A DNA stretch of 64,000 bases. Source: a virus (taxonomy: Duplodnaviria; Caudoviricetes). Below are positions 10,441-58,790 of this stretch, piece after piece. The position numbers and the translations under genes were made by a program. The number at the start of each line of letters is the position of its first letter. The first letter of the stretch is position 1. Location of the stretch: the IMG/VR virus record IMGVR_UViG_3300025723_000013; one strand, 5' to 3'. The notes below the pieces were generated by a model. The model made no database searches. It saw nothing but the letters and a program-made list of their open reading frames with translations, and had not been told where the DNA came from.

Positions 10441-10446
10441 AGTGTA

Positions 10447-12042
10447 CTATTTATGTAAAGTGCTGATGTAAATCGGCATAGGCAAATCATGTTCTTCCAA
10501 ACCTTTATGATCTCGCATTTTTTCATAAATTACAGGATCCCAATCTTGTAAAATCATGATCATACGCATGGATAACAATAGGCTTGAAACCAAATCATCG
10601 TGCTGACCTGATTTTGCCTTGAATGATATGCCCGAAGCTATAAATGTTTTAAGTTCGCTGATTAAAGTTTTGCTGTTTAATTTTATTTGCTTGCTTTCAA
10701 TCAACTGCTTTAGTTTGGCACAGGCAGCAATTTTGGCTGAATGTGTGGTATTGAAGCCTCGTCGGAATCGTCTCACATGACCTTTTTTAATAGGTTCGCT
10801 TAGAAACAGTCCAGGAAAACTGTCCTCGCCCAATTCATTTATAGCCGCTATGGCGCTTTCGCCAATGGTATTATTTTCAACACTGTAGTAAATGCTACTG
10901 GTGGCGCCCATTTTATTACATTCGTCGTCTACATATTTGATCATATCTCGGAAAATTCTGGCTTGAGCTTGCACAGGAGTAGTATTATGATGCCATTCAC
11001 CCACTTGTTCTAGACTGGGTATTTCCAAAACTTCTATAGCAGCAAAATCACCACCTGTGCCCAAACTGGGGTCGAGGCTGAAAACATATGTCGAACTAGG
11101 GTCTATTCTTTTGTACCATCTGGCCTGTCCCATTTTCATAAAGGGTTCCTGCCCTTCCAGATCACTTAAACTGATGCTGTTGATCAATGTTTCACTGAAA
11201 ATCAAAAACTCGCATTGATGTTCACGACGGAATCTTTCTTCGCCCACTCTACTACGCTCAGTATCAGCCCAGGTTTCATCTCGTTCAGGATGTTGATTCC
11301 ATATGGCTTTGAATGGATAAAATCCATTTCTTCCTAATTCTGTTTCATTTCCAAACTCGTCAAATTTTTTATTAGCTTCATTCCAAATTTGAGCAAACTG
11401 ATCCTCGTCGCTGTTTGGAGTGCTAGTAATAATGGCTTTACCACCTGTGGCCAGAGTAGGGCTGATAGAGGTCCAAAATTCAACAGCAATATTGGGTTCC
11501 ACATATGCAAACTCGTCGGAGTAAAGCAAGGACACAGACATACCTCTACCTGTGGTTTCTGTAGTAGTTTGGGCTATTATTCTCGATCCGTTTTCAAATT
11601 CTACACTTTGTTTGTTATAGCTGGTAACACCTGCTCTTATCCAATCTGGGCAGGTTTCATAAGCATATCGTAATCGCTGCATGATTTCTTGTGCGCCCGA
11701 ATACTTGTGCGCGGCTATGAGAATAGTACTGTTATCCATAAACATCGCATACCATAGCAAATAACCCACCGCGGTGGTGGTTTTTCCCAGCTGCCTTCCA
11801 AGCATGTTAATGCTGAACCGATGTGTATGATAACTTTTTAGTAATTCCTCCTGATAATCATACGCCTCATATTTTAGTTTGCCCTGCACCGGATGCTGTA
11901 TAAAAAAATAATTTCTTAAGAAATGGGCAGGACCTGTGTCAGGATCTTGACATTTGATTAATTCTTCAATCTGAGCTTTGGTCCATTTTTGTTTTTGGTT
12001 TGCACGTTTTATTAAGACCCCATCGAGATTTTTACTACCCAT
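10447..12042 (-). CDS. gp17: Terminase large subunit
   Basis: GRQLGKTT Walker A, LLYSDEFAYV Walker B, ITSTPN, SLDPSLGTGGD, HDDLVSS nuclease motif. Confidence 0.95.
   Translation of the reverse strand: MGSKNLDGVLIKRANQKQKWTKAQIEELIKCQDPDTGPAHFLRNYFFIQHPVQGKLKYEAYDYQEELLKSYHTHRFSINMLGRQLGKTTTAVGYLLWYAMFMDNSTILIAAHKYSGAQEIMQRLRYAYETCPDWIRAGVTSYNKQSVEFENGSRIIAQTTTETTGRGMSVSLLYSDEFAYVEPNIAVEFWTSISPTLATGGKAIITSTPNSDEDQFAQIWNEANKKFDEFGNETELGRNGFYPFKAIWNQHPERDETWADTERSRVGEERFRREHQCEFLIFSETLINSISLSDLEGQEPFMKMGQARWYKRIDPSSTYVFSLDPSLGTGGDFAAIEVLEIPSLEQVGEWHHNTTPVQAQARIFRDMIKYVDDECNKMGATSSIYYSVENNTIGESAIAAINELGEDSFPGLFLSEPIKKGHVRRFRRGFNTTHSAKIAACAKLKQLIESKQIKLNSKTLISELKTFIASGISFKAKSGQHDDLVSSLLLSMRMIMILQDWDPVIYEKMRDHKGLEEHDLPMPIYISTLHK
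10448..10453 (-). promoter_or_regulatory. T4-type late promoter TAAATA, 7 nt before ATG
   Basis: TAAATA-GTACACT-ATG; overlaps terminase stop. Confidence 0.7.
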
Positions 12043-12047
12043 AATTA

Positions 12048-12053
12048 TATTTA
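12048..12053 (-). promoter_or_regulatory. Late promoter TAAATA, 5 nt before terminase ATG
   Basis: TAAATA-TAATT-ATG directly downstream of a terminator. Confidence 0.7.
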
Positions 12054-12056
12054 CTC

Positions 12057-12084
12057 AAAAAAATAGGCCCCGCGGGGCCTATTT
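12057..12084 (-). terminator. Rho-independent terminator
   Basis: Perfect 24-bp palindrome AAATAGGCCCCGCGGGGCCTATTT ending in a run of 7 T on the minus strand. Confidence 0.85.
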
Positions 12085-12101
12085 GATATGTTGTGTACGA
12101 T

Positions 12102-14107: not shown

Positions 14108-14131
14108 AGTTAATTTGTTCCTATGCTTTAT

Positions 14132-14602
14132 TTATTTCAAATTCTTAAGTTTTTCCAATATGGAGTTTCGATCTGTCATAATATAGCCTTCGCCCTGTAC
14201 CTCATTGTCTTGTCCATGTTTTTTATCAATAGCTAGCTTTTTAAGCTGTAAATCTACCATTTTTAATTTTTTGTCTATTTTGGCACTTTTAGCTTGTATA
14301 GCTGCGTTCATCATATTGGCCGCTACTTCAAACATGCGAGCGCCATAGCGTGCTTCTACATTCATTCCTAGATCCATTAAATCGTCATAGGCCTGCTCGG
14401 CTTTGACAGCCAATGCGTCCAGTTCGGCATCACTTATATCCCCTAGTCCTTTGACTCTGGGCAAAGCCGCAGATATCTTGTCAAATTCTTCAAGTTTAGA
14501 TTGCAGATCAATAGTGGGAGGAGCCATAGTAGCTTCTTTCGCGGGAATAATGTCCTCGGTCTTGGGGTCAATGTTTAAAATTTCTTCTAATTTTTTTGTC
14601 AT
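14132..14602 (-). CDS. gp16: Probable terminase small subunit (gp16-like)
   Basis: 156 aa helical; AYDDLMDLG..ARMFEVAANMM..KMVDLQLKK and C-terminal TDRNSILEKLK parallel gp16 pattern. Confidence 0.55.
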   Translation of the reverse strand: MTKKLEEILNIDPKTEDIIPAKEATMAPPTIDLQSKLEEFDKISAALPRVKGLGDISDAELDALAVKAEQAYDDLMDLGMNVEARYGARMFEVAANMMNAAIQAKSAKIDKKLKMVDLQLKKLAIDKKHGQDNEVQGEGYIMTDRNSILEKLKNLK

Positions 14603-15036: not shown

Positions 15037-15428
15037 TTTACTTTTGGAGTATTGTCTATGATCTGTCTGGTAACTTCCTGTGATGGCTGGAATGATTGAC
15101 TAGCTCCCAGCAAACTAGTTTTCAGTCTATTATAATTTAATATTTCGGCAACCAATCCGCTAATCTCAGTTGATCCCAGTGTTCTTAATGTATCTAAAAT
15201 CTGTAGAGCATTATATCCGTCTTGCAATGCCTGCGTGAGTATTGTTATTGCTGTTGATTCTGCGGCAACTGCTTGAAAACCTCTGCTCTCAAAAAAACCC
15301 GTCATAGCGATTAGCTCGTTGTTGTTTATAGTGATTGGAGTGCTAAAGTAATTGTTCATTACCTGTATTGTTTGATCAGAGCTGGATGGAGCTTTTTGTG
15401 AAGGAATATTAGTGTACAAAGCTGTCAT
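15033..15428 (-). CDS. Hypothetical protein
   Basis: 131-aa ORF coupled to both neighbours. Confidence 0.65.
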   Translation of the reverse strand: MTALYTNIPSQKAPSSSDQTIQVMNNYFSTPITINNNELIAMTGFFESRGFQAVAAESTAITILTQALQDGYNALQILDTLRTLGSTEISGLVAEILNYNRLKTSLLGASQSFQPSQEVTRQIIDNTPKVK

Positions 15429-16603
15429 ATTATTGGTCCGACACCTAATTTTTCACTGTAGGAAGGTAACTCAACTTGCGTTGCTTGTGTGGCATTTGAG
15501 GGTTGAGATCCTGCAGGAACACTTATTCCTGCAGGATTGGTGCTTTGTGATTCATTCAAAGACTGAGATGATAATATATTTGGTCCTGAAGTTTTCAGCA
15601 GTAGACTGAAAAATTTAACATTAGAATTAGGGGGTATAAAAATACTATCTGGTAATCTGGATCCAGCAGCCGCAATTGTTTCGCTGTTTATTCTATCAAG
15701 ATCGCTGTTGCCAGGATTGTTCAAACTGCCTCTAATATCCGTAATTCCCGATACTGACCCATTTTGATCTACAACTGTGGGATTCCCTTGTCCTCCAATG
15801 CCGATGGTACTGAAGGCTGTATCATAATGTTCAGGGCTATTAAATCCACTTTGAGAAATAACGCGATTATCCGGATTGGTATCATAAATCATTGTTTCGT
15901 ATTCTATGATCATTTTGCTGGCTGCTATTTTACTTCCTGCTGACTGATCTAACGATTCATGCGACCAGTCTTTTATCAAGGGTTTGACCAATTTAAACGC
16001 TGTGTATTTCTTTTGATTTAATTGAAAAATATCTATTGATTCAATGAAAGGTATGGATTGTCCATTACTCAATCCAAATTTGTTGGAATTGCTGATGAAG
16101 TCGTTGTATTTGTTATCGCTATATTTAGGCACTGTAGACGCTTGCGTTATACTCACACGTCCGGTGTCATTGCTGTCTCCGTAATAGTATGTATAATAAC
16201 TTTTCCAAAAATTAGTTGAAAGATTTGCCATGTCATCATGAAACGTGATAGAAATTGGACTGTAATTTATTTTCTTTTGTATAATGTGCTTTCTATTATA
16301 CTGATTCATTATTTCGGTATCAATTGTGAATTTAGGCAAATCTACCTGTTTGGATAACAAACCTATAAATCCTTTGTATCTGCCATACCATCTATTAAAT
16401 TCTATATATGCAACAGTATCGGTAATAGCCTTGGCTATATCCGCATTAATGTTGATCCTTACATAATATATCCATCCAGCTTTTGGGCTAAATTCATAGA
16501 TACGATCTGGCGTACTTCTTAGATATAATCTAGAAGCATGTTGGTAGTCTCTAAGATTTACCCCAGCACTGCCGCTTAATTGATTTACCCACCCGCTTGA
16601 CAT
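15425..16603 (-). CDS. Tail tube-like / tube initiator protein (gp19/gp54 family)
   Basis: KQVDLPKFTIDTE..QYNRK..INYSPISITFHDD and LVKPLIKDWSHESLD..IEYE match tube fold. Confidence 0.7.
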   Translation of the reverse strand: MSSGWVNQLSGSAGVNLRDYQHASRLYLRSTPDRIYEFSPKAGWIYYVRININADIAKAITDTVAYIEFNRWYGRYKGFIGLLSKQVDLPKFTIDTEIMNQYNRKHIIQKKINYSPISITFHDDMANLSTNFWKSYYTYYYGDSNDTGRVSITQASTVPKYSDNKYNDFISNSNKFGLSNGQSIPFIESIDIFQLNQKKYTAFKLVKPLIKDWSHESLDQSAGSKIAASKMIIEYETMIYDTNPDNRVISQSGFNSPEHYDTAFSTIGIGGQGNPTVVDQNGSVSGITDIRGSLNNPGNSDLDRINSETIAAAGSRLPDSIFIPPNSNVKFFSLLLKTSGPNILSSQSLNESQSTNPAGISVPAGSQPSNATQATQVELPSYSEKLGVGPII

Positions 16604-16610
16604 AGTGTTT

Positions 16611-16616
16611 TATTTA
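16611..16616 (-). promoter_or_regulatory. Late promoter TAAATA, 7 nt before ATG
   Basis: TAAATA-AAACACT-ATG after terminator. Confidence 0.7.
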
Positions 16617-16621
16617 TCTAT

Positions 16622-16652
16622 AAAAAAAGGCGTAATAAATTACGCCTTTTTT
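16622..16652. terminator. Bidirectional intrinsic terminator
   Basis: AAAAAAGGCGTAAT-AA-ATTACGCCTTTTTT inverted repeat after tube gene. Confidence 0.85.
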
Positions 16653-16671: not shown

Positions 16672-17328
16672 TTAAGCCGGAATTCCACTACCGCCGGCTC
16701 CGCCGGTAGCTAATGTTCCGGCTGTTTGCCTAATCCGCTCACCAATTCCTACTAGTGATCCAGCAGCATTGAGTTGAATGGCATTGTCATATCTAACAGT
16801 CAATGTGATCTCTAATGGATCACTGGTTTTATAATCACCTTGAGAGTATGCAGCTTTGTTTAAAAAGCAGCCATCCAATTCAAAAGTTTCTAAAACAACC
16901 GGACCATATTGGTTGCCATTTCCGCCATCTAAAATTTGTATCAACGTGGTAAATTTATAATCTATTCCGCTTACAGCACTGCTTTGTTCATAAAAGTCAA
17001 ATTGCTTTTGAAGCTGTTCGCCAACCAGTCTACTGACGTTGCCTTGTGCATCATCTCTAATTTTGATTTCAACGTCATCCCACTTGGCCTTGCCTGCTAG
17101 TTTGATTCGACTATTATAAACATCTAGAGTGATGTCATCAAAACTGGGTGATGGTCTACCTGCACTCATAACTTGTTTGGTCAATTCGGTAGTGGGTTTT
17201 GTAACACCAAAATTTTCAAAAAGTACGCGAAAACGATATGCCAGTTTTGGCATCAGCAGCCCTTGATTGGATGCACTCTGAGATGTGTCTAACGGTACTC
17301 CTAAATTGCTTAAACTTGAAATTGCCAT
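16672..17328 (-). CDS. gp19: Tail tube protein
   Basis: MPKLAYRFRV, LTKQVMSAGRP, AGKAKWDDVEIKIRDD, TFELDGCFL, LTVRYDNA; follows sheath. Confidence 0.85.
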   Translation of the reverse strand: MAISSLSNLGVPLDTSQSASNQGLLMPKLAYRFRVLFENFGVTKPTTELTKQVMSAGRPSPSFDDITLDVYNSRIKLAGKAKWDDVEIKIRDDAQGNVSRLVGEQLQKQFDFYEQSSAVSGIDYKFTTLIQILDGGNGNQYGPVVLETFELDGCFLNKAAYSQGDYKTSDPLEITLTVRYDNAIQLNAAGSLVGIGERIRQTAGTLATGGAGGSGIPA

Positions 17329-17356: not shown

Positions 17357-20300
17357 TTAGGCCTTTGCGCCTGCTGCGATAGCACCGGTGTTGACCAATC
17401 TCAATGGGATGTAAATAAACTCTACAGCTTTAACTGGTTCAATGGCAATGTCTACCCATAACTCACTGCGATCAATTCTCGAAGGAGTATTGTTTGATGT
17501 ATCGCATACTGTGATATAATCGTAAATCGCTCTTTGTGCTACCAATTCTAAAAGAAGATTATCAACTGCTCCTTTTATTTCAGAACGAGTGATCGAATCG
17601 TTTGGTTCAAACAAGAACGGACGAGCCAGTATTTCTAACTGTCTGCGCAGATAGCAAACTAGTCTAGCAACGTTAATACGATCCAAGCTACTGGCCACAC
17701 TTGCACGAGTATATTGCCCCATTACTACCAACCCGGAACCCGGGATAGTGGCTATTGGATTGACTTTGGCTTCTGCTAATACATTTCTTAAACCTTCATA
17801 CAGTGAAGTTTGTACAAATTCATCAGTGGTTGGATCAACATATCCTACCGCTGTGGCATTTTGAACCACGCCTCGTCTTAGTCCAGCTGGAGCAAACCAC
17901 GGATAACTTACATTATCGCTGTTGGCAATGGTATATAACATCATGTGACTAGGTGGTACAACTATATAATTTCCAAAGTTATCATTGCTATAACCGCTGG
18001 GATAATAAAAAGCCGTGTAGTCGTCGTAAGTTACCGCACCAACATCGCCGTTATCCAAAGCACCATTGGTGTTATTGCCCCAAGCACTAAGTGTGGTGGC
18101 ATCTGGTTCCAATCGGAAAGGAGTATCTGCCACAACAAATGCCGTTTGATTTCTATCCGAATTTAGATTGACCAAATTCTGCACAGCTTCTGGATAGCCA
18201 GGGCATGCCAGTAGATTGAATACAAGTGTATCGGTATCTCTTACAGCAGCATTGGTATCAATTAAAGATTTTAATGCTGCAACAACCACAGCTCTTTGTG
18301 CATGTCTTCCAAAGGTACCAACTCCTTGACTATCATTAGGACTTGCTGTTACCCAGCGATCCGCTTCATAGTTGGACAAAGGATCACTGTTGTATCTGAT
18401 ATTGACACCATTGTTGGCATTCAGATTGATGTAATCACTAACATATTTCTTAACATTGAATCCACTGCGACGTGTATTCCATAATCTTGTACCCTGTGGA
18501 TACAAAGCCGGATCAGGTGCATCTGGATCAAGATAATTGCTTCCTAGCATGACCTTGATCGGTGTTACTGTAGACATGCTGGATGCTCCACTGGTGCTCC
18601 AGCGAGCATCCGCAAATAGCCAACCATTTGGTGTGGTATGATCGGTTGGATCTTGCAAAACCCAGGTCAATGTTGAACCATTATACACATAAATTTGATG
18701 ACCATAACTGTCTATGGGCGAAGTCTGTATCCAAATGTCTCCATTTGTTAACGGAGTTCCGTCACTTTGCGTGGTAGGAGCCGAAGCCGAAACCAAAGGA
18801 CCGTTTGGATCACTATTTGGGAACTGATTTAAATATCCCACCCAAGTTGTTCCGTTTTGATATAAAATATCCACTTGATCAGTCATGGAATCGTACCATA
18901 ACTGTCCATCGGCAGGAGTAGTGGAAGGAGCCGTCGGTAATGATTGATAAAACAACGGAGCCCAGTTGCTTGCACGCAAACTGTATCCATTGGTTTGATA
19001 TCTACCTGTACGATATAGGTTTGGCGTAGTTTGTGGATTAAATCCTAAAGCATTGGGACTGCCGCCAGTCAATGGAGAATTGGTTCCATCTGCTATCTTA
19101 AAATCTCCACCTAACGCATGACTTATTGTGATTGTGCCATTGGTGCCAGCGGACGGGCTATAAGTTGCAGAAACATTGCTAAATCCTGCAGCACTAATAG
19201 CTGTAACCAGCGCGTTCAATGATGTGGCTGTGTTGTTTGCTGGCTGCGGAGCAATGGTCACTGTGGCAGTATTAAAATGTCCAAATACTCCTGCTAGAGT
19301 TTCATTCAAGACAAATGTACTATTTGTTGCGGTGTTGAATCCAGTAAATGAGTTAGGTACGGCATAGCTAATAGTTGTAGGAGCTACAGCTTTTCTTCTG
19401 TATACCTTAAATTCAGCTAAAAATTGCGAACTAGTTGATCCGCCTTTGCCCTGATCATAATTACTGCAAACAAATAGTGTTCCAACAGGAATTTGTGTTC
19501 CTCCGGTCAAATCCAAATTGAAGATTGCTGCATCGGTACTTTTGTAGATGGGGGCCGCCACTGTTCCAAAAGTCTGTGTTGCTCCGTTATAATAACTAAC
19601 AGACCAATTGGCTCCATTATTTGGAGGCGTTGTTTTGATATACACACTTCCACTAGGATTTCCATTAGCTGCAAATTGCGGAACCTGCGTGTGTGGCTGT
19701 ATGGCAAGACTTACTGCTGCATAGGTTGACGTAAATCCTAGAGGACCCACGGCCGATCCACTTAGAGAAATGCTGCCTTTGTAAGTGACATCGCTAGCAT
19801 CTGCATATAATGCCACTTGACCATTAAGCACTCTAGCTCCTACTCCGTGTGTGTACATCACACTGTTTATGCTCGAAACAACTTGCGAGGTGCTAGTTCC
19901 GCTAAAAGTAATGGATTGTCCGTTAACGGTAAGTGACAGTCCGGTATTAAATGAGCTGCTTATTCCTGAACTGACCGCGATAGGATAACTGGTTTGCCAG
20001 CAAGTGCTTCCGTTCCAGGTTGGACTAAATGTTTGTTCCCAATTGCTGCCGACCAATACCCAGACATTATCGCTGTTTTTATACCATAGTTCATTGGTAT
20101 TTTCTTGCGTAACTACCATGGCATATGCGCCAAGCGTTCCAAAACTTGGATTCGGGGTCCAATAAGGATTTCCCATAAAATCAGTGGAACTAGCGGCAAC
20201 TGAGTTTTTATTTGTGTCGTCAATGATAAGAAGGGTTTGATTTTCAAACAATCCAGAAGTGGCGTTCCATTCGCTTACTCCAAATACCGAATTGGCGGAG

Positions 20301-20716: not shown

Positions 20717-20747
20717 TTATCGATCTCCTTGATGGATTGCTTATTTT

Positions 20748-20753
20748 TATTTA
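20748..20753 (-). promoter_or_regulatory. Late promoter TAAATA for sheath-tube operon
   Basis: Followed by ~30-nt leader with AAGGAG SD. Confidence 0.65.
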
Positions 20754-22286: not shown

Positions 22287-22291
22287 ACTAG

Positions 22292-22309
22292 TATTTAGTT
22301 CAATAAATA
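22292..22309. promoter_or_regulatory. Back-to-back divergent late promoters
   Basis: TAAATA on minus (22292-22297, 5 nt before gp13 ATG) and on plus (22304-22309, before gp14 AGGAG/TTG). Confidence 0.7.
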
Positions 22310-22334
22310 CAATAGCTTCACTAGGAGAAGTAAT

Positions 22335-28488: not shown

Positions 28489-28521
28489 AGTGTATTATTT
28501 ATTAATTTTTGTAGTGATTAT

Positions 28522-48600: not shown

Positions 48601-50371
48601 GAGCTTCCGGTCCGCAACTGTTGAATGTTTGGGGCGCAACGCTGGTACCACTGTTAATTATGCTGATAATGATGTTGTAACCTGTAACAATTTCTTGACC
48701 AGCCAACGAACCATTGATTAATGCTGTATTAATGGTTTGTGACGTTGCTGTGCTAAACAAATTTGAGTTTAGAATCTGTTGATTTTGTATGATGGCTTGG
48801 CTGAGAGTATTGATGTAGTTAAGTGCTGCAATTGTTTGCAACTGTTGGCCTTGTATGAGACAAATATTGCCATTATAATAGGCCAATCCAGCTTCAACCG
48901 CTTTTTCATTGCCACCAAATGCAGCATCATAGGCCACATTTTGAACATTAAATCCCACATCTCTGGAAAATAGGGCCGGGGTATACACAAAATTTCTAAA
49001 ACTGGTTGAGGTGTTAAGTTGCGGAATAGTAATTGTGGCACTGGTAGCAATTTGATAATTTACCCAAGCCACTGTTTGATCCTGTATGAATGAAAGATTT
49101 GACAACAACAAGGTTCGAGCATTTAAGAACCCGGCGTCTTGAGGTCCACTTATCACATTCAATCCATTTACTATGGTTCCTGTAGAAACAGTTACCACTA
49201 TGGTAGTTGTATTTGATGCAAAGGTAGAGGTTCCTACAGCTTGTGGAACTTGTACTGTTTGATTGGGCACAAACATAGTTCCATCAACCAGCCATGGACC
49301 GCTTTGATTGGTGCAATTTTGTATGTATGGAGAATGGTAAACGTTTATCTTGGCACCATTCACTTGCGGAGGAAATGCTGTGGCGTATGCGCCTCTGTTT
49401 ACTCCATTGGGATACACGCCAGGCAACAACCCGCTTCTTCCGTTGAGGAATTGCATCTGCGCAAGATAGCATCCGCTTTGAACGTGGAATAGATCTTGTG
49501 TTTTATTGATGGGCTCGATGCTGGTTGTTCTTAAATCGTCTCCTACGATTGCGGTGTTGGGCTGCAAAAGTATGGGATTGTTTTCTAGGTAATGTCCGCT
49601 ATAAACCTTGATCATTGTGCCAGGAAGATAATAGGGACTGTTTACTGCACCGCTGATGGTGCGACAGGCTCTGCTGGGATCAGCTGCTCTACCATCGTTG
49701 GTGTCATTGCCGTCAACTGTGACATGCAGCACATTGGTGATTACCGGAGCAGTGCCTATAGGATTTTTTCCTTGCACTCTTAATTCGGCGTTGATCTCAA
49801 GTAAATTACTGCCCGGATTTATCGTGATAGTTCCGGTGCTGCTGATTTGATTGGTAATTATATTTGATATATAGCCATCTAACCAGGATTTAGAAGCACT
49901 GCCAAGATTGTATTGTTGATCAACGGCAGGAATGATATCGGAGGTTATTTCTGAACCAAAAGTCACTGTGTCGGTGGCTGTGTTATTTCCTAAAATAATA
50001 TTGCCATCGGCGGTGATATTTCCTGTAGCATGCAGATTGCCAGTTACCAGGGTATTGCCAACGAGATTTATCATGCCGTTGGCACTTGGTTGCAGCGTTA
50101 TTGGACCCACAGAAGTTGCAATAGTTCCGGAGTTTATTATCAATTGGCCTAATTGTGATTGACCAGTTCCGGGGCCTGTATAAACAACTTTTAGATTGTT
50201 GGCGTTAATGGTGCCATTAACATCCAATTCATAGGCAGGATTAGTTTTCTTGATACCAATGAGTCCACTGGAAACATTCAAGTATAATAAATTTGTTTCA
50301 AATGCTAAGTCTACGCCGTCGCGTAGTAAATTTGGCGCTAGCAACGGACCTGAGATGCGACCAATGGCCAT
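42698..50371 (-). CDS. Giant virion protein: split pectin-lyase-like beta-helix with helical repeats (2557 aa)
   Basis: HVTVDGNDTNDG..CRTI, IVGDDLRTT, SPYIQNCT ... DAFTQINQGG..YAQLVS.FT..NSNSNFG; ten RD.G..D..DL..GN repeats. Confidence 0.8.
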   Translation of the reverse strand: MAIGRISGPLLAPNLLRDGVDLAFETNLLYLNVSSGLIGIKKTNPAYELDVNGTINANNLKVVYTGPGTGQSQLGQLIINSGTIATSVGPITLQPSANGMINLVGNTLVTGNLHATGNITADGNIILGNNTATDTVTFGSEITSDIIPAVDQQYNLGSASKSWLDGYISNIITNQISSTGTITINPGSNLLEINAELRVQGKNPIGTAPVITNVLHVTVDGNDTNDGRAADPSRACRTISGAVNSPYYLPGTMIKVYSGHYLENNPILLQPNTAIVGDDLRTTSIEPINKTQDLFHVQSGCYLAQMQFLNGRSGLLPGVYPNGVNRGAYATAFPPQVNGAKINVYHSPYIQNCTNQSGPWLVDGTMFVPNQTVQVPQAVGTSTFASNTTTIVVTVSTGTIVNGLNVISGPQDAGFLNARTLLLSNLSFIQDQTVAWVNYQIATSATITIPQLNTSTSFRNFVYTPALFSRDVGFNVQNVAYDAAFGGNEKAVEAGLAYYNGNICLIQGQQLQTIAALNYINTLSQAIIQNQQILNSNLFSTATSQTINTALINGSLAGQEIVTGYNIIISIINSGTSVAPQTFNSCGPEAPLVSAELLLHNNRNFLQTQVANYVAATYPTFVTNLAKSYRDSGFLIDAISQDIIVGGNTKTIEAALSYFTSSKDDSGVAQTAVINNFSLFKNIYTTGPSAVPATVVGPNLGPGYTNAQVILNENIQFVQTEVSAYIRSLFTATYTLTPVQQALSYQYIGTVLTAIAADTAAGGNANTIQAAIQYYLNYNSLQLLPTSALTYMQQLCVNIVNNMQNTGLYQTLIAQITNLAPATAAEAQSIDTNLDLITQIVTQGPKSSSYPSTIAVNALSTNTNAFNAYNLLEANRAFISAELTGWIDNTFGNGFNYNTSTCYRDTGLIVDSLALDLLQQDNSQAIFAGLQYWSQYGYTGAIAQEITTTTNAIKYASQLAQKIVVNSTVTSLQTATSQVFGTTSTFASSATTTVALLFSTITNILSNGVTGITNQIVPNGSSSTNVGLINSYNILLANQNFIAAEVVAYVNKNNPGFVYNQATCYRDTGLIVDSISLDLLFPGNGYTQSNFAGLQYWSQNGYASPTFLQEITTTTNTINYINNLATQIVTNTVTGKRYQTAVQQITSSTTATIAEAQTIYNDFNLIVGIINSGTAGVTDLIVPNGISASTNTNVKTAYWLLEANRNYLQTEAIAYITATSPYGYSYNVNKFYQTMGSMVDSVAFDLLYGGNRQAIQTGVYYYAFTSTNTSTAIPNEIPQTTAAYNFINSLANFIITGQRIPTQYQTTVTQVLSANTGTTADVFNVNKEISLIVNIINSGTSAALAPNSIAITATTTATTVYAAQLLAANRTFIQAETVAYINNQFATGFQYDQVKCARDVGYIVTSVAFDLLHGGNRQSIQSGVYYYNYNPNSSVITYELAQITAAYNRIKQVSSQLILGQTVTPSPGNAVSPITSTNTGTSADVAFIANDIDIINSIINTGPNIPYAKKPILLASTTTQSTINAYNLLTANRAFIQNELIAYINYYFAQPFYYDKVTCVRDTGIIVDSVAMDLLYNGNTQSTFAGLQYWNQAGLTTGTQSLLTATVDTVQTLGIYINQIITYYLSSTATITANVNTLTNILTSGTANVTNLIVPNGLPSLNTNTVMAYELIQANRSVLQTQTVTTITNKYNTLGINTATLTRDVGNMIDALSFDLLHGGNRQTIQTGVYYYTFSNTSSALVTAAGNEIPQVAAAYDHLKYIMASVIQNQPLVPSYQVVYPQVIEPAFMGVTPVLGSIEAPICVDSINYLNAICLNVISNTPIVSSTFDNSTVTRYLSTITSTATQYFNYNLIGGQYAATAINRNFHIITNVIQNGPNAAPPAFTGSGLFATTGISSDDVRNSTTVLSFTNSNNVYTIKLSTPTIGDAQNGTLYFGNPAVFPATNSQVEALSLQYTGSSSTWNSRKVDVIGAMGGSLVDGSVVSDISPIQSFVYDAFTQINQGGVGIHVTNNGYAQLVSVFTIFCSVGVQVDNGGIASIVNSNSNFGDICLLSNGHGPLEFSGTIYNPPYPTYIYSYSQSTATSIGQYFPLGYYPQNGTLEVYLPDTSYRPHIGLLMEIVPPVNYFNGYLNTVTTYINSAGYPGFLTGSPSVGVLTTGSITIKGIDTTGAAVGNTVYIRDQYGNTGTTSTNNIFVPYTFPGTTIVAIGYQSITLNQGLGNGGQDPTNSNLFTNNNYFNVYFCGNAYYTVDSSTINDSFGHTLGTSILSTASVQVDQIGPEVASLRYLNTLIANTLTNANILGPINFINTSINYITSLTSSTTLPIVNASGNIVTYTTKVSGSTVTNTINIVKPSTVPATIPPAGAGAAIIVISNNIQSYVDSVIVYIKQTYPTLPFKEYKCRRDVALILQQLIYDLTYGTNYYSVYSGLSYWYRAGTHHIVRIEETVSNPLLFPDGATVNFYQRSYMSASGYTFEYVGAGVTYSALPQRGVADPIQGQEVVQVNNGKIFFTSTDQNGDFRIGPGLVISQATGVLSGRTFTKSLFANLTPFILAIEGR

Positions 50372-50473
50372 TAGGACTCCTCATACCACCGAGTTTCACG
50401 GGGAACCACATTACATTGCGGGTTTACCACAGTATGTTCCTGCTGGTAAAAGCCCCAACATCGATTGTATTTA
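50372..50473 (-). promoter_or_regulatory. Late promoter plus structured ~95-nt leader with 16-codon uORF
   Basis: TAAATA 50468-50473; uORF 50461-50411; hairpins 50423-50450 and 50406-50421; GAGGAG SD. Confidence 0.55.
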
Positions 50474-51615: not shown

Positions 51616-51625
51616 TGTTTATACC

Positions 51626-52639: not shown

Positions 52640-52667
52640 TTAGATTTCCTTTAATGTATTTATTTTA

Positions 52668-53186
52668 TTACCATACTCTTATGACGAAGTAGTTAATTCG
52701 AGGAGCTACATTGTGCGGCCACGAAGGATGACTTTGAAATCTTAAAGTTGCCCCAAAACTAGGGTCTGATATTATGGTCGGAGTGAGTGTGGTTCCCCAA
52801 AAAACTCCTTCCCCGCCGTAATTTTTTATGATACTGAGATCGTCGCTGGCTAGATTTTCTCCAAGCGGCTGTCCGAGATACTGTAATTGTATCACATCAT
52901 CTGTGATCCTAGCGCCTCGATCAATGCCCAGCATGGCTTCTAGTCCTGATATAGTGGGCGGTAACGATGCTATGGCAAAGTTTGTTAGAGATAGATAGTA
53001 GGTTTTTTGTTTGACATCATTAACATATGTATTGGCAATATGGGCCAACGGTTTAACAGTAGAAACAAACGTATTGGTCTGATTCCGTAAATTGTAAAAA
53101 TTACTGCCGTCATCTACCCATGCGATATGTTGTGCAACTTCGCAATATTGACTTACAGCGTTAGGATATAACCAATTGGTAGGCAT
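52668..53186 (-). CDS. Hypothetical protein
   Basis: 172-aa ORF; TAAATA-GTCGT-ATG. Confidence 0.7.
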   Translation of the reverse strand: MPTNWLYPNAVSQYCEVAQHIAWVDDGSNFYNLRNQTNTFVSTVKPLAHIANTYVNDVKQKTYYLSLTNFAIASLPPTISGLEAMLGIDRGARITDDVIQLQYLGQPLGENLASDDLSIIKNYGGEGVFWGTTLTPTIISDPSFGATLRFQSHPSWPHNVAPRINYFVIRVW

Positions 53187-53205
53187 ACGACTATTTAACT
53201 AAAAT

Positions 53206-53233
53206 AGAAAAAGGCTCCAAAGAGCCTTTTTCT
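53206..53233. terminator. Bidirectional intrinsic terminator
   Basis: AGAAAAAGGCTC-CAAA-GAGCCTTTTTCT. Confidence 0.85.
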
Positions 53234-53255
53234 CATTTTCCAAACAGAGATCTAA

Positions 53256-53951: not shown

Positions 53952-53969
53952 TTTTTTCTCCTTGTTTAT

Positions 53970-54038
53970 GGCAGTTTTATTGCCTACGCAGTGGGTGCAT
54001 AAATCCCCAAAGATATTCCAGGGACAGTGTTATTTATA
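53970..54038 (-). promoter_or_regulatory. TATAAATA late promoter with three-hairpin leader
   Basis: Promoter 54031-54038; hairpins 54004-54024, 53985-54001, 53970-53984. Confidence 0.6.
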
Positions 54039-54047
54039 TAAAATTCT

Positions 54048-54233
54048 TTATCTTCCATGTCCTTTAATCTTGCAACCCTTTTGAAAACTGGCATTGGAAG
54101 TGGGCGGGCATTGATTGGGATTGCGAATATTCTTGCGTGTGGCCCAGGCATATCCTGCTTGATGTCCTGAGCAGTCTTTGGTGCATTTGGAACCTTTAAA
54201 GTCTAATTCTGTTATGATTTCATGTATACGCAT
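54048..54233 (-). CDS. Small Cys-rich protein (61 aa)
   Basis: MRIHEIITE..CTKDCSGHQAGYAWA..C..SFQKGC; own TAAATA 4 nt upstream. Confidence 0.65.
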   Translation of the reverse strand: MRIHEIITELDFKGSKCTKDCSGHQAGYAWATRKNIRNPNQCPPTSNASFQKGCKIKGHGR

Positions 54234-54258
54234 CGGGTATTTATTTTATTCTCTCAAC

Positions 54259-54283
54259 AAAAAGCCCGCACTGGGCGGGCTTT
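54259..54283 (-). terminator. Intrinsic terminator after major capsid gene
   Basis: AAAGCCCGC-ACTGG-GCGGGCTTT with T-run on minus strand. Confidence 0.85.
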
Positions 54284-54309
54284 CTGTGTAATCAACAAAT
54301 AAGTAAAAC

Positions 54310-55491
54310 TTACTTGTAGCTTACTGTAGCGCTGTTGATCGCCACTTTGGACAAGTAATCAGCTGCATTGCCTAGTGACGATGCAGTATTTGACAACTCA
54401 ACATAACCGTAACGGGTTAGGAAGCCAACTACTGGTTCAAAGGTGCTTGGATCTAGTACAACACCGGAGCTCATTAGAGGAATATATGGGCAATAGAAAG
54501 CAGGTGCGTCTGCTTCGCTTGAACCCTTATAACCAATTAGAACCTGGTTGTTGTTGTCTGTATCAACCTTGTAGGCATCAACATAAACTTTCATCGCGCC
54601 ATTTAATGTACCAACAAACTTGGTGTTTGTTGGAGCTTCAAATGTGCCTTCGGTTGTTCTTGCGAACGCAGAAGTTGTTGCGCTCTGGAGGATTGTTAGA
54701 GCCTGGTTTGAAACCACAGCCCAGTTGCCTGCGCCACGACGTGTACGCTGTGCAATTAGGTTGCTGACACGGTTGATCTGGATAGCTAGTGCAGCATGTT
54801 CGTCACCGACGAATGTGGCTGTACCAGAAACTAGAGCCTGGTCATATGTTTCATCAACTGAGGCCAAACCACGTAGCGAAGCTAGGATTTCCTGGTCGAT
54901 TTCAACCGTGATTTCCTGGGCTAGTGCTGCCATGATTTCTGCTTCGATGTCAATTCCCTGCTGAGCCTGTGCATCCTGTGCAGCCTCAAAAGTCCAACGA
55001 GCTGATAGCTTGCGTGACTTGGCTTCTACTGGAGCCTTGAGGATCTGGATGCTCATTCTCTTACCTGGCTGACCTTCTAACTGGCTGGTTGAAGCGGCTT
55101 TTGGAATCGCGTCAACGTTGTTACCAGAGTAGGCAGCAGCAATCTTGAACGGGCTTAGTGCTTCTTCACCGGCTACTACTGCACCGTCGCCGCTGCTGTC
55201 AGCATAACGAACACGTAGAGTATGGATTTGACCAACAGGGCCAGTCATTGGCTGTACGCCGATGATTTCGTTGGCAATAACTGTGGGCATCACACGTCTG
55301 ATAACTGGTAGAATTACACGGTTAAGTGTTGCTACGTTACCACTGCTGGTTGCACCTGCTGTTGCAGCTTCTGCCAAGTAACGACGAGTGTTTTCTAAGC
55401 AAACCTGCATAGAAGAACGACGATTACCTGATAGGCCTTCAAGCAGAGCTTCCTTTGTCTCGGACCATCTTTCATTTAATAACTGTGACAT
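54310..55491 (-). CDS. gp23: Major capsid protein
   Basis: LPVIRRVMP..IIGVQPMTGPVG, VEAKSRKLSARWTFEAAQD, EIDQEI, FYCPYIPL, TRYG. Confidence 0.97.
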   Translation of the reverse strand: MSQLLNERWSETKEALLEGLSGNRRSSMQVCLENTRRYLAEAATAGATSSGNVATLNRVILPVIRRVMPTVIANEIIGVQPMTGPVGQIHTLRVRYADSSGDGAVVAGEEALSPFKIAAAYSGNNVDAIPKAASTSQLEGQPGKRMSIQILKAPVEAKSRKLSARWTFEAAQDAQAQQGIDIEAEIMAALAQEITVEIDQEILASLRGLASVDETYDQALVSGTATFVGDEHAALAIQINRVSNLIAQRTRRGAGNWAVVSNQALTILQSATTSAFARTTEGTFEAPTNTKFVGTLNGAMKVYVDAYKVDTDNNNQVLIGYKGSSEADAPAFYCPYIPLMSSGVVLDPSTFEPVVGFLTRYGYVELSNTASSLGNAADYLSKVAINSATVSYK

Positions 55492-55512
55492 TTATGTCTC
55501 CTTGAATATAAG

Positions 55513-56607: not shown

Positions 56608-56621
56608 TGTCTCCTATACGG

Positions 56622-57257
56622 TTATTTCAAACCGCTAATTAATTTCAGCATCGCCTCTCGGAGATACTGCTGTTTTTTTGGATCTTCTTTGACTTCTTGC
56701 GCCGTCCTAATCGCTTTATAACCGCCTCGACTGTTCATCAAGTGTTCATAAACCGGAGTAGGATAAGCTCCTGGCGCCGAAGGTTGGGCAACAATATCAA
56801 CTGTTATGATTTCAAAATCGGCCACTTCGCCAGAGCGATCGTCAACGTTGCCGCTGCCTCTGCTGCTGACTCCAAGTTTCACTCCGCTTTCAAGCATCGT
56901 ACGAATCAAGTTGCCCATCGGAGTGGGAAGAATTTTCATCTTCCCATATCCATTAGGACCGTCCATCCACATGTCTGTAATCATGTGGCTAACACGGTCC
57001 AAATTTACTTTTAGGTCATCAGGATGATCAACTTCGCCTAGCACTGAATATCCATTTTGTATCTGATCATTTAGAGTTTTGACAGCATTGGTAATTTCGT
57101 TAACCGGATAAACCCGCTGATTAGCGTTACGAATACCACCTTGGATAGCTATACCTTTAAGATAAAGATTTTTGCTACCTCTCTCTTCAGACTCGTATAT
57201 TTCCACACGAGCTTGATCAAAACTGAGATTTTCTCTTAGATAGGCTAGTTGTTTCAT
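56622..57257 (-). CDS. gp21: Prohead core protease
   Basis: NANQRVYP, LGEVDHP, VSHMI, LGVSSRGSG, DIVAQPSAP.AYP. Confidence 0.93.
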   Translation of the reverse strand: MKQLAYLRENLSFDQARVEIYESEERGSKNLYLKGIAIQGGIRNANQRVYPVNEITNAVKTLNDQIQNGYSVLGEVDHPDDLKVNLDRVSHMITDMWMDGPNGYGKMKILPTPMGNLIRTMLESGVKLGVSSRGSGNVDDRSGEVADFEIITVDIVAQPSAPGAYPTPVYEHLMNSRGGYKAIRTAQEVKEDPKKQQYLREAMLKLISGLK

Positions 57258-57266
57258 CTCAATTCC

Positions 57267-58397
57267 TTAGCGCTTGGGCAGAACGTCTTTGTCATTGACG
57301 CTCATTTCCTTGTTAGTACGCTTGGCATTGTGTACATAGCCTTTGGTTTCTTTGCCATCAACGTTTTGATCAACTTTATCGGTAAATTTCTTACCGCTGT
57401 CCTTGACTAAACCGGCAGCTTTTCCACGTGGAGTAGTACCGTCCTGATCTAGATCTGCGCCGTTGTCGGTAGCAATGTTTCTTGGGCTAGCCTTTCCGCC
57501 ATCTGGACGACCTTTAAAATCAGTGTTGATAGCGCTCTTCTTAAAAACGCCGCCTTCTTCATTTGGACTTCCTGAAGAATAATTGCTTTGTTTTCCGCGG
57601 ACTAGTTCGCGATATTCGCGCACAAAAGACTCGTCAAAATCTTCCTCTTCTTCATCGTCCTCTTCTTCACTATCTTCTTCCTCTTCTTCATCGTCCTCTT
57701 CTTCTTCGCCGTGCATGTCGTTTAGAATCTTGCTCATTTCAGATTCTAGATTCTTGACCATATCTTTAAGATCTAGCACGTCATTGTGTAGTTCATCGTG
57801 TGCATCGCTGTCCATTTCATGTTCGTCGTCCATTTCATGTTCGTCGTCCATTTCTTCGCCGGCATCGTGCATGGCATCATGATCTTCTACAGAATCGAGA
57901 AATTCATCGGATTCGTCGCCGCCCAGTTCATGCTCTGAATCATTACCGATTTCAAACATGCTTTCTTCTTCATCCATCATGGACTCATCTTCCATTTCTT
58001 CGGGTAAGCGTCCTGTTGGTCCGCCCATGTCGTAGTGTTTTTTCAAGTGCTCGGGATATGGCTCGCCGCTGGCAGTGGTTCCGGTACGCATGGCTTTGTA
58101 TTCGTCACCGTATTTGGCTATTGCATCTGCACGTCTATTGGCCAATTTATCCTTGGATGGATTGGATCGACCGCCTTTCTCGGCGTCATCGTCATAGTGG
58201 TACATCTCATCCATTTCTTCCTCGTCATCTTCTTCACGAGCTTCATCCATTTCTTCGTCATCCATTTCTTCTTCGGCAATTAAATTTTCGTAGATCGATC
58301 TAGATTTTTCAACGATAATTTCATGAAACAGTTCATTGGCTTTGTCTGTTTCCTCGTTAACTAGATAATCTAATAGTTTTTCAAACTTTTTAGACAT
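57267..58397 (-). CDS. Highly acidic prohead core/internal protein
   Basis: 376 aa; ANELFHEIIVEKSRSIYENL then long D/E tracts; TAAATA 58446-58451 and AAGGAG SD. Confidence 0.7.
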   Translation of the reverse strand: MSKKFEKLLDYLVNEETDKANELFHEIIVEKSRSIYENLIAEEEMDDEEMDEAREEDDEEEMDEMYHYDDDAEKGGRSNPSKDKLANRRADAIAKYGDEYKAMRTGTTASGEPYPEHLKKHYDMGGPTGRLPEEMEDESMMDEEESMFEIGNDSEHELGGDESDEFLDSVEDHDAMHDAGEEMDDEHEMDDEHEMDSDAHDELHNDVLDLKDMVKNLESEMSKILNDMHGEEEEDDEEEEEDSEEEDDEEEEDFDESFVREYRELVRGKQSNYSSGSPNEEGGVFKKSAINTDFKGRPDGGKASPRNIATDNGADLDQDGTTPRGKAAGLVKDSGKKFTDKVDQNVDGKETKGYVHNAKRTNKEMSVNDKDVLPKR

Positions 58398-58526
58398 TGC
58401 GGGTTCTCCTTTTTTAAATTTAACACTGGCAAGGCTGTCAGCTAATATTTACAACCATTGTAGAATACTTATACAAAATGGGTGAAAAACACGCCGTTTT
58501 AATCTGTGAGCAGGAAACAGTGGTTT

Positions 58527-58772
58527 TTAGATACCAGGAGCAGGTTCTTTAGGTAGTGAATACATTTTTTTAACCAATTGTGATTCTTCTTTTTGCTCTC
58601 TTTCGCGAGCATCGCCGGCCTTGCGTAGTTCATTCAACATGCCCAGTGTGAGTCGGCTTTTTCGTAGATCCGTGGACTTGATCACACTGCTGTCGTGTTT
58701 GGGTTCGTAACGACCTTTGTCCCGCATTTCGTTTTCTTCGGGATTGAAATAAATGAATTCTCTAAGTAGCAT
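58527..58772 (-). CDS. Small hypothetical protein
   Basis: 81 aa; RKSRLTL..LNELRK..VKKMY; TATAAATA-AGTGT-ATG. Confidence 0.7.
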   Translation of the reverse strand: MLLREFIYFNPEENEMRDKGRYEPKHDSSVIKSTDLRKSRLTLGMLNELRKAGDAREREQKEESQLVKKMYSLPKEPAPGI

Positions 58773-58790
58773 ACACTTATTTATAAGTTT

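What the first reader, a model, noticed from the sequence alone, without database searches (positions are those of the whole stretch)
10441..58785. Two classes of late promoter: nine TAAATA boxes sit 4-7 nt from an SD-less ATG (apparently leaderless late mRNAs)
Spacers: 10448 GTACACT, 16611 AAACACT, 28496 ATACACT (shared ACACT-ATG), 12048 TAATT, 22292 CTAGT, 53192 GTCGT, 58778 AGTGT, 54238 CCCG, 50468 CAATCG (uORF). None has a clear AGGA/GGAG. The other TAAATA sites (8595, 14129, 20748, 22304, 52657, 54031, 58446) have longer leaders with AGGA(G). T4 late transcription starts a few nt after TATAAATA, so these mRNAs would begin at or next to AUG. This implies a built-in two-tier translation scheme (terminase and neck in the leaderless tier; sheath and prohead core in the SD tier) and is a clue to host biology.
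Basis: partly seen in the sequence, partly recalled or inferred. Interest (0 to 1): 0.75.

Follow-up and report, generated by a model that had tools for sequence, protein, structure and literature searches.

The report
Late promoters fused to start codons
In this uncultured giant T4-related phage, eight late genes start 4-7 bases after a T4-style late-promoter box and have no ribosome-binding site, so their messages most likely begin at the AUG; dozens of relatives keep the layout gene by gene, but no RNA data confirm it yet.

Summary
TAAATA is the rarest of its 15 letter permutations in the window. Even so, 16 of its 30 sense-strand copies lie in the 2.6% of DNA that is intergenic, and 8 sit 4-7 nt before the ATG of a real gene.

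In 87 relatives from IMG/VR the TAAATA-to-ATG distance is bimodal: a sharp peak at 5 nt, almost nothing at 8-14 nt, and a broad SD-led class at 15-40 nt. Each gene keeps its class across relatives: terminase, neck adaptor and small g81 are leaderless-type; capsid, sheath and tube are SD-led. The T4 late box spans -13 to -6, so N5 puts +1 on the A of ATG, and the base before it is a pyrimidine in 97% of cases. Relatives encode a gp55-type late sigma.

The ninth site's "uORF" is not conserved; it lies in a conserved structured leader. T4, PA5oct and Atu_ph07 lack the layout, while Pelagibacter phage HTVC008M has it. This scan has already reported the layout in many other aquatic phage genomes. 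No transcript 5' ends were available, so "leaderless" remains an inference.

The parts
10438..10453 (-). TAAATA (10448-10453) + N7 (GTACACT) + ATG of the 606-aa virion protein gene (8620..10440). The box overlaps the last codons and stop of the terminase gene.
   Evidence: Six of 6 orthologues have TAAATA N5-7 ATG. PHROG virion structural protein.
12040..12083 (-). Terminator hairpin plus T-run (12057-12083), 3 nt, TAAATA (12048-12053), N5 (TAATT), then ATG of the large terminase gene (10447..12042).
   Evidence: All 7 relatives have TAAATA, exactly 5 nt of varying sequence, then ATG; six of them (not L007) also show the terminator hairpin upstream.
16601..16646 (-). Terminator (16622-16646), TAAATA (16611-16616), N7 (AAACACT), then ATG of the 392-aa tube-fold protein gene (15425..16603).
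   Evidence: Three of 3 alignable orthologues are leaderless-type, each preceded by a terminator.
22284..22297 (-). TAAATA (22292-22297) + N5 (CTAGT) + ATG of the 255-aa neck/head-tail adaptor gene (21519..22286).
   Evidence: Orthologues in three roughly 325-kb relatives all have TAAATA-N5-ATG.
28486..28501 (-). TAAATA (28496-28501) + N7 (ATACACT) + ATG of the 365-aa gene (27391..28488). A second TAAATA lies at 28519.
   Evidence: No orthologue was found in relatives, so this site has no comparative support.
53184..53227 (-). Terminator (53208-53227), TAAATA (53192-53197), N5 (GTCGT), then ATG of the 172-aa gene (52668..53186).
   Evidence: Seven of 7 alignable orthologues are leaderless-type, most behind a terminator.
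54231..54280 (-). Capsid-operon terminator (54259-54280), TAAATA (54238-54243), N4 (CCCG), then ATG of the 61-aa gene (54048..54233).
   Evidence: Two of 2 orthologues are leaderless-type.
58770..58783 (-). TAAATA (58778-58783) + N5 (AGTGT) + ATG of the 81-aa gene (58527..58772), which sits in the gp67 position after the portal gene.
   Evidence: Forty-five of 45 orthologues (37-67% identity) have TAAATA N4-7 ATG with differing spacers.
50369..50473 (-). TAAATA (50468-50473) followed by a conserved, structured leader of about 95 nt, then SD and the ATG of the 2557-aa gene. This belongs to the long-leader class; it is not a leaderless uORF.
   Evidence: the uORF peptide is variable or absent in relatives; the alignment shows a conserved core and a hairpin with a covarying pair. 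No Rfam match.
20717..20753 (-). SD-led late promoter: TAAATA (20748-20753), a 31-nt leader with AAGGAG, then ATG of the tail sheath gene.
   Evidence: Four of 4 orthologues have SD plus a distant TAAATA.
58398..58451 (-). SD-led late promoter: TAAATA (58446-58451), a 48-nt leader with AAGGAG, then the head-morphogenesis operon (376-, 211-, 364-aa genes and the 393-aa major capsid gene).
   Evidence: Eighteen of 18 orthologues of the first gene have SD plus a distant TAAATA. The capsid gene has SD in 79 of 79.
52640..52662 (-). SD-led late promoter: TAAATA (52657-52662), a 17-nt leader with AAGGAA, then ATG of the 337-aa gene.
   Evidence: 11 of 14 orthologues have SD plus a distant TAAATA.
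14108..14134 (-). SD-led late promoter: TAAATA (14129-14134), a 21-nt leader with AGGAA, then ATG of the 196-aa gene.
22304..22337 (+). Plus-strand TAAATA (22304-22309), a 25-nt leader with AGGAG, then the TTG start of the 399-aa virion gene. It sits back to back with the minus-strand box at 22292.
53952..54036 (-). TATAAATA (54031-54038 in full) with a leader of about 79 nt and AAGGAG before the 231-aa gene.
8508..8600 (-). TAAATA (8595-8600) with a leader of about 87 nt and AAGGAA before the gp32-like ssDNA-binding protein gene.

Best explanation
TAAATA is the -10-type late promoter of this phage. It is read by host RNA polymerase carrying a phage gp55-type sigma, and as in T4 it needs no -35 element.

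The promoter is used in two fixed layouts. In the first, it lies 15-50 nt (up to about 95 nt) upstream and the leader carries a strong SD. This layout serves high-copy proteins: major capsid, scaffold-like proteins, sheath and tube. In the second, the box lies 5 nt (range 4-7) before an ATG with no SD. Transcription then starts on the A of the AUG, or within 2-3 nt of it for N7, and the mRNA is translated as a leaderless message, by direct 70S/initiator-tRNA binding to a 5'-terminal AUG. This layout serves terminase, a neck adaptor, a tube-fold protein, a 606-aa virion protein and three small proteins.

A likely consequence follows. On read-through transcripts from upstream promoters these ATGs are internal and have no SD, so they stay silent. 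The genes would be translated only when their own late promoter fires, and probably at a lower rate than the SD tier.

Shown here: the motif, its spacing, its conservation, the absence of SD, and a gp55 homologue in relatives. Inferred: the exact TSS, leaderless translation, and the dosage or timing logic.
For: 1. The signal is real. Sixteen of 30 sense-strand TAAATA copies lie in the 2.6% of the window that is intergenic (p = 4e-18). TAAATA is the rarest permutation of its letters yet has 8 of 46 copies at d = 4-7, against 0-3 for the others.

2. The distance distribution is bimodal in 87 relatives (about 1 Mb). Counts are d4 = 22, d5 = 81, d6 = 5, d7 = 12; only 9 sites at d8-14; and about 140 at d15-40. 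Whole genomes of relatives agree: G003 has d5 = 23 and d6 = 14 over a background of 2-6 per bin, and G001 has d5 = 15.

3. Orthologues keep the spacing while the spacer sequence drifts. Terminase is N5 in 8 of 8 genomes. Leaderless-type counts are g81 45/45, g606 6/6, g172 7/7 and g255 4/4. Capsid (79/79), the scaffold-like gene (78/78), sheath (4/4) and tube (6/6) are always SD-led.

4. The geometry fits. The T4 late box spans -13 to -6 (PMC1524935), so the modal N5 puts +1 exactly on the A of ATG.

5. There is a TSS-like dinucleotide. In the N5 class the base before ATG is T in 86% and C in 11% of 80 distinct sites. At SD-led starts it is A in 55% and T in 21% of 428 sites.

6. Four of the eight window sites lie 3-21 nt behind an intrinsic-terminator hairpin plus T-run. 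Relatives show the same arrangement. This leaves no room for a leader from a local promoter.

7. A gp55-type late sigma is present in all three roughly 325-kb relatives (phrog_12791 E = 1e-85 to 1e-89; phrog_234 E about 1e-24).

8. The first 45 nt of leaderless-type genes fold more weakly than those of SD-led genes (mean -2.7 against -4.4 kcal/mol, p = 2e-14). This comparison is confounded by shared ancestry and by GC content.

9. The N-termini are coding from the first ATG. Alignments start at residue 1-3, and synonymous changes are visible in codons 2-7.
Against: - No transcript 5' ends or ribosome data exist for this phage or its clade.
- The gp55 homologue is 306-310 aa against 185 aa in T4, so its TSS distance could differ from T4's.
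- The N7 class (three of the eight window sites) would leave a 2-3 nt leader, or would need an unusually long box-to-TSS distance.
- In the N4 class the base before ATG is often G, which does not fit a simple Y(-1)R(+1) start on the A.
- A gp33 homologue is only faintly detected (E = 0.054). The T4 gp45 family model finds nothing in relatives.
- The gp55 gene lies outside this window and was seen only in relatives.
- The orthologous loci are not independent samples, so the raw counts overstate the statistical weight.
Confidence: 0.72

Rival explanations
1. TAAATA is the late promoter, but the genes right behind it are translated mainly from longer polycistronic transcripts by termination-reinitiation or coupling. 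The close spacing is only genome compaction, with the box squeezed into the gene junction and sometimes sharing its TAA with the upstream stop codon.
For: In many g81 orthologues, and at the terminase/606-aa junction, the box overlaps or abuts the upstream stop codon. Gene junctions in the window are very tight; intergenic DNA is 2.6%. Several other SD-less genes overlap their upstream neighbour.
Against: Four of the eight sites follow an intrinsic terminator rather than an upstream ORF end. The neck gene sits in a divergent intergenic region with no upstream ORF on its strand. Compaction alone does not predict a sharp mode at exactly 5 nt, the empty 8-14 nt zone or the 97% pyrimidine before the ATG.
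Confidence: 0.12
2. TAAATA next to the ATG is a translation signal, not a promoter: an A/U-rich, S1-binding enhancer that replaces SD.
For: A/U-rich sequences upstream of start codons can enhance SD-independent initiation (general knowledge, not tested here). These sites have no SD.
Against: The identical word, in the same flanking context (a purine before it), also sits 15-95 nt upstream of SD-led late genes, where it cannot be acting on the start codon. It matches the T4-family late box, and the clade has a gp55 sigma. Other A/T words of the same composition show no such placement.
Confidence: 0.05
3. The pattern is an artefact: either chance in AT-rich intergenic DNA, or wrongly called start codons with the true SD-led starts lying downstream.
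For: The window is AT-rich (GC 34-47%). Starts were called only by ORF logic.
Against: Permutation and intergenic controls reject chance. Orthologue alignments begin at residue 1-3 with conserved N-termini in up to 45 genomes. The terminase alignment to phage Phosso starts at residue 1.
Confidence: 0.02

Closest known systems
Phage T4 late promoters (TATAAATA at -13 to -6, read by gp55 with gp33 and the gp45 clamp; PMC1524935, PMC3014915)
   Same: The core word is the same, no -35 element is needed, and the box is placed before structural genes. A gp55-type sigma is present in the clade. The long-leader, SD-led class looks just like T4's.
   Different: T4 itself shows no peak of TAAATA 4-7 nt before gene starts; its leaders cluster around 21-32 nt. 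Here about half of the late promoters in the window abut the ATG. The sigma is about 120 aa longer. gp33 and gp45 homologues were not clearly found.
Thermus phages phiYS40 and Lalka27a (bioRxiv 10.64898/2026.04.20.719267)
   Same: Phage late promoters lie 6 bp upstream of a TSS that coincides with the A or G of the initiator codon, and most transcripts are leaderless.
   Different: The promoter word differs (TAGGGT, a sigma-A-type TANNNT), the phage family is unrelated, and the host phylum uses leaderless mRNA as a norm. Here the same phage also uses strong SD sites, so the two modes coexist gene by gene.
-10 region adjacent to ORFs in Deinococcus-Thermus (PMC12340547)
   Same: A bare -10 element a few bp before the ORF serves as the whole expression signal through leaderless mRNA.
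   Different: That is a host sigma-70-family -10 motif in cellular genomes. This one is a phage late sigma box, and its host evidently uses SD.
T4 gene e and I-TevI: translation gated by late-promoter position (PMC3014915)
   Same: Where the late promoter sits decides whether the message can be translated. Read-through early transcripts stay silent, and only late-promoter transcripts are translated.
   Different: T4 does this by leaving out the 5' half of an inhibitory hairpin around an SD. Here the proposed gate is the presence or absence of a 5'-terminal AUG.
Lambda cI mRNA from P_RM, and poxvirus TAAATG late promoters (from my own knowledge, not checked here)
   Same: Both are viral promoters whose start point coincides with, or overlaps, the start codon.
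   Different: Lambda has a single gene of this kind under a sigma-70 promoter. Poxvirus transcripts gain a poly(A) leader by slippage and are eukaryotic-type mRNAs.
Pelagibacter phage HTVC008M (cultured T4-like myophage)
   Same: It has the same TAAATA-N5-ATG layout. Fourteen of 24 TAAATA-N4-7-ATG sites are N5, and 9 of the 12 hits in the 6-32 kb stretch checked coincide exactly with annotated CDS starts, including head-closure and baseplate genes.
   Different: It belongs to a different family (Kyanoviridae-affiliated, 147 kb) with a marine host. I found no paper that describes this feature.

Membership tests
T4-type (gp55-dependent) late promoter | A conserved TATAAATA-like -10 word upstream of late (virion and packaging) genes, with no -35 element | tested here: met
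   (R)TAAATA precedes 16 genes or operons, nearly all structural. Sixteen of 30 sense-strand copies are intergenic. Some boxes sit only 3 nt behind a terminator T-run, which leaves no room for a -35.
T4-type (gp55-dependent) late promoter | The phage encodes a gp55-family late sigma factor | tested here: met
   Found in three of three roughly 325-kb relatives (phrog_12791 E = 1e-85 to 1e-89; phrog_234 E about 1e-24). It was not seen in the window itself. By synteny with G003 it should lie a few kb beyond the window's end.
T4-type (gp55-dependent) late promoter | gp33 co-activator and gp45 sliding clamp as the activating machinery | tested here: inconclusive
   The gp33 family gave only a faint hit (E = 0.054 in one genome). 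The T4 gp45 family model gave no hit and also found nothing in the control genomes.
T4-type (gp55-dependent) late promoter | Transcription starts 6 nt downstream of the last A of the box | not testable with these tools
   No RNA data were available. Indirect support comes from the modal spacing of 5 nt and the pyrimidine-then-A at the predicted -1/+1.
Leaderless mRNA | The primary 5' end lies at, or within a few nt of, the start codon | not testable with these tools
   Inferred only from the box-to-ATG spacing and from terminators directly upstream.
Leaderless mRNA | No Shine-Dalgarno sequence; AUG start codon | tested here: met
   None of the 8 has SD, against 28 of 40 other genes. All 8 use ATG. 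In relatives the count is 43 ATG, 1 GTG and 0 TTG, which does not differ significantly from SD-led genes.
Leaderless mRNA | Translated from the 5'-terminal AUG | not testable with these tools
   The only evidence is that N-terminal coding is conserved from the first ATG.
Regulatory uORF (site 50468) | The ORF and its peptide, or at least its reading frame, are conserved in relatives | tested here: not met
   In relatives the ATG is missing, or the ORF is 1-3 codons long or of unrelated sequence, while the surrounding RNA sequence is conserved.

The most novel reading that the evidence does not exclude
A widespread group of aquatic T4-related phages, including this jumbo clade and the cultured SAR11 phage HTVC008M, runs part of its late programme on true leaderless mRNAs made by a gp55-type sigma. 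The promoter position serves as a built-in switch. Low-copy late proteins such as terminase and neck are translated only from their own late transcript and only at the leaderless rate, while high-copy proteins use SD. This would imply that the phage or its host supports efficient 70S-type leaderless initiation late in infection, possibly with phage help.
Probability: 0.55. Interest if true: 0.65.

Novelty: new variant of a known kind. Interest (0 to 1): 0.5.

Why it matters
T4 late transcription and leaderless translation are both textbook topics, but I found no paper that links them. If the inference holds, four things follow.

1. Gene callers and promoter predictors for uncultured T4-like and jumbo phages should model a second start type, with no RBS and TAAATA-N5-ATG.
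2. Promoter placement becomes a simple, evolvable way to set both the timing and the dose of late proteins.
3. The fixed assignment of genes to each class gives a testable link between translation mode and virion stoichiometry.
4. Because HTVC008M can be cultured, the idea can be tested directly.

This scan has already met the layout in many other genomes, so this window adds a well-controlled case, not a first sighting.

Tried and rejected
- Megablast of 22 kb of the window against cultured phages found nothing. The nearest cultured relatives are only 40-55% identical in protein.
- No whole genome is held for the window.
- The search for related loci with the 275-aa gene found no relatives. 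The 365-aa leaderless-type gene has no orthologue in the three large relatives, only short repeat-like matches in other genes, so site 28496 has no comparative support.
- Rfam finds nothing in the window or in the 50.4-kb leader.
- I tested whether cultured relatives share the layout. PA5oct, Atu_ph07 (first 400 kb) and T4 show no 4-7 nt peak at ORF starts. The raw pattern counts at d3 and d5 in PA5oct and Atu_ph07 were mostly not gene starts.
- The PA5oct omics paper reports only sigma-70-like promoters.
- Start-codon usage (ATG against GTG or TTG) does not separate the classes significantly.
- The phiYS40 paper (PMC1885378) is not held. I rely on the Lalka27a preprint's statement about it.
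- RNAalifold on a plain MAFFT alignment of the 50.4-kb leader recovered only one 5-bp hairpin. The other helices I saw by eye were not tested.

Full report
**What the window is.** Nearly all genes lie on the minus strand. PHROG matches give the following gene map:
- UvsW/UvsY/UvsX/gp32-like replication and recombination genes at 3-8.5 kb.
- A large terminase at 10447..12042, a tail sheath at 17357..20716, a tail tube at 16672..17328 and neck/head-closure proteins.
- A T4-like head module: a 993-aa gene in the portal position (no family search was run on it), an 81-aa gene, 376-, 211- and 364-aa genes, and the major capsid gene at 54310..55491.
- Giant fibre-like genes of 1443, 1623 and 2557 aa.

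The nearest cultured phages are PA5oct, Phosso and Atu_ph07, at only 40-55% protein identity, and there is no nucleotide match. IMG/VR holds many relatives, including three contigs of 322-328 kb. The window is therefore part of an uncultured jumbo T4-related myophage.

**Checking the observation.** Eight sites sit 4-7 nt before the ATG of ORFs of 61-606 aa:

| Site | Spacer | Gene |
|---|---|---|
| 10448 | N7 | 606-aa virion protein |
| 12048 | N5 | terminase |
| 16611 | N7 | 392-aa tube-fold protein |
| 22292 | N5 | 255-aa neck adaptor |
| 28496 | N7 | 365-aa gene |
| 53192 | N5 | 172-aa gene |
| 54238 | N4 | 61-aa gene |
| 58778 | N5 | 81-aa gene |

None of the eight has an SD-like word. Of the 40 other genes, 28 have one, often a strong AAGGAG (Fisher p = 3e-4). 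The seven "long leader" sites all carry AGGA or GGAG. I add an eighth at 35629, which lies 39 nt before the 1623-aa gene.

**Is it more than chance?** Yes.
- TAAATA is under-represented overall (46 copies against 68.7 in shuffles) and is the rarest of the 15 permutations of its letters. It still has 8 copies 4-7 nt before an ORF-opening ATG, against 0-3 for every other permutation.
- Intergenic DNA is only 2.6% of the window, yet it holds 16 of the 30 sense-strand copies (p = 4e-18).

**Comparative evidence.** I fetched 87 related loci (about 1 Mb) using the terminase and capsid proteins.
- The TAAATA-to-ATG distance histogram is bimodal: d4 = 22, d5 = 81, d6 = 5, d7 = 12; only 9 sites at d8-14; and a broad hump at d15-40.
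- Two near-complete relatives show the same peak genome-wide. G003 has d5 = 23 and d6 = 14 over a background of 2-6 per bin, and G001 has d5 = 15.
- Orthologues keep the layout while the spacer letters drift. All 8 terminase genes have TAAATA, exactly 5 nt, then ATG, with eight different spacers. Seven of them, all but L007, also show a terminator hairpin and T-run just upstream.
- The 81-aa gene is leaderless-type in 45 of 45 relatives at 37-67% identity. The other counts are 606-aa gene 6/6, 172-aa gene 7/7, tube-fold gene 3/3, 61-aa gene 2/2 and neck adaptor 3/3.
- The opposite class is just as stable: capsid 79/79, the gene before it 78/78, sheath 4/4 and tube 6/6 are always SD-led.

The class is therefore a conserved property of each gene.

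**Why this points to leaderless mRNAs.**
- The T4 late box occupies -13 to -6 (PMC1524935). The modal 5-nt spacer therefore puts +1 on the A of ATG.
- In the N5 class the base before the ATG is T in 86% and C in 11% of 80 distinct sites. At SD-led starts it is A in 55% and T in 21% of 428 sites.
- Four of the eight window sites lie 3-21 nt behind an intrinsic terminator. Any locally initiated transcript must then begin in the few bases before the ATG.
- All three large relatives encode a gp55-type late sigma.
- The first 45 nt of leaderless-type genes fold less stably than those of SD-led genes. This is weak support, confounded by GC content and shared ancestry.
- The starts are not mis-called. 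Alignments begin at residue 1-3, and codons 2-7 show synonymous drift.

**Weaknesses.**
- No RNA data could be obtained.
- The sigma is about 120 aa longer than T4 gp55. gp33 is only faintly detected and the T4 gp45 model finds nothing.
- N7 sites (three of the eight here, sharing ACACT-ATG) would give a 2-3 nt leader or need a long box-to-start distance.
- N4 sites often have G before the ATG.

**The ninth site.** The 16-codon "uORF" after the box at 50468 is not conserved. In more than 20 relatives the ATG is absent, or the ORF is 1-3 codons long or unrelated. What is conserved is the RNA: a variable first hairpin, an almost invariant core of about 45 nt, a second hairpin that changes form between subclades, and then SD and the ATG of the giant gene. 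This site belongs to the long-leader class. Rfam has no match.

**Mechanism proposed.** One late promoter word is used in two layouts.
- The SD layout serves high-copy proteins.
- The fused layout serves terminase, neck and several minor or small proteins.

On read-through RNA the fused-layout ATGs are internal and have no SD. Translation would therefore depend on firing of the gene's own late promoter. This is the same logic as T4 gene e and I-TevI, where late-promoter position decides translatability (PMC3014915), but achieved through a 5'-terminal AUG. The dosage reading (leaderless meaning lower yield) is an inference from the gene functions.

**Comparison with known systems.**
- T4, PA5oct and Atu_ph07 have the box but no 4-7 nt peak at gene starts.
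- The PA5oct omics paper reports only sigma-70-like promoters.
- Thermus phages YS40 and Lalka27a have mostly leaderless transcripts with the TSS 6 bp after a different -10 word. Deinococcus-Thermus genomes place -10 boxes next to ORFs.
- Pelagibacter phage HTVC008M, a cultured T4-like phage, shares the TAAATA-N5-ATG layout at annotated gene starts.
- Literature searches linking leaderless mRNA with gp55, T4-like phages, jumbo phages or late promoters found no description of this.

**Earlier notes of this scan.** Notes report the same layout in many other aquatic phage genomes. I re-tested the HTVC008M claim, the T4-negative claim and the Thermus comparison myself.

**Verdict.** This is a new variant of known kinds (T4-type late promoter plus leaderless mRNA). 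It is well supported by sequence statistics and by evolution, unproven at the RNA level, and already seen repeatedly by this scan.

Noticed in passing
window 50372-50467 (minus strand); relatives such as L009:14988-15095 and L042:15917-16025: The roughly 95-nt leader of the 2557-aa gene is conserved in more than 20 relatives. It has a variable first hairpin (loop GACCA in many), an almost invariant core of about 45 nt containing a 5-bp hairpin with one covarying pair, and a second hairpin that takes two alternative forms in different subclades. Rfam has no match. It looks like a cis-regulatory RNA of unknown function.
   Followed up: partly
window 22287-22334: Two TAAATA boxes lie back to back on opposite strands within a 48-bp divergent intergenic region. 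The minus-strand box is fused to the neck gene ATG (N5). The plus-strand box has a 25-nt SD leader and a TTG start. In relative G001 both divergent genes are N5.
   Followed up: partly
window 10447-10453 and many g81 orthologues: The late box is often built into the end of the upstream gene. It overlaps the last codons and stop of the terminase gene, and in many relatives the TAA of TAAATA appears to double as the upstream gene's stop codon (frame not checked). One six-letter word would then serve as stop codon and promoter.
   Followed up: no
G001:215364-216152, G002:288801-289598, G003:295212-296018 (loci L096-L098): The clade's gp55-type late sigma is 306-310 aa, about 120 aa longer than T4 gp55 (185 aa). 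The extra part was not examined. It might replace gp33, which I could not clearly find.
   Followed up: no
Pelagibacter phage HTVC008M, NC_020484 (L153, L154): This cultured SAR11 myophage has TAAATA-N5-ATG at the annotated starts of at least nine genes within 6-32 kb. They include head closure, baseplate tail tube cap, baseplate wedge, DNA end protector and tape measure. It could serve as an experimental system for testing leaderless late mRNAs.
   Followed up: partly
window 8595-8600 and 7464..8507: The gp32-like ssDNA-binding protein gene, an early/middle function, also has a TAAATA box about 87 nt upstream. That would give it late expression as well.
   Followed up: no
window 61883-61888, 51688-51693, 12116-12121: Three more sense-strand TAAATA boxes lie inside the 3' ends of genes, 70-110 nt before the next gene's ATG. 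They could be internal late promoters with long leaders. They were not assessed in relatives.
   Followed up: no
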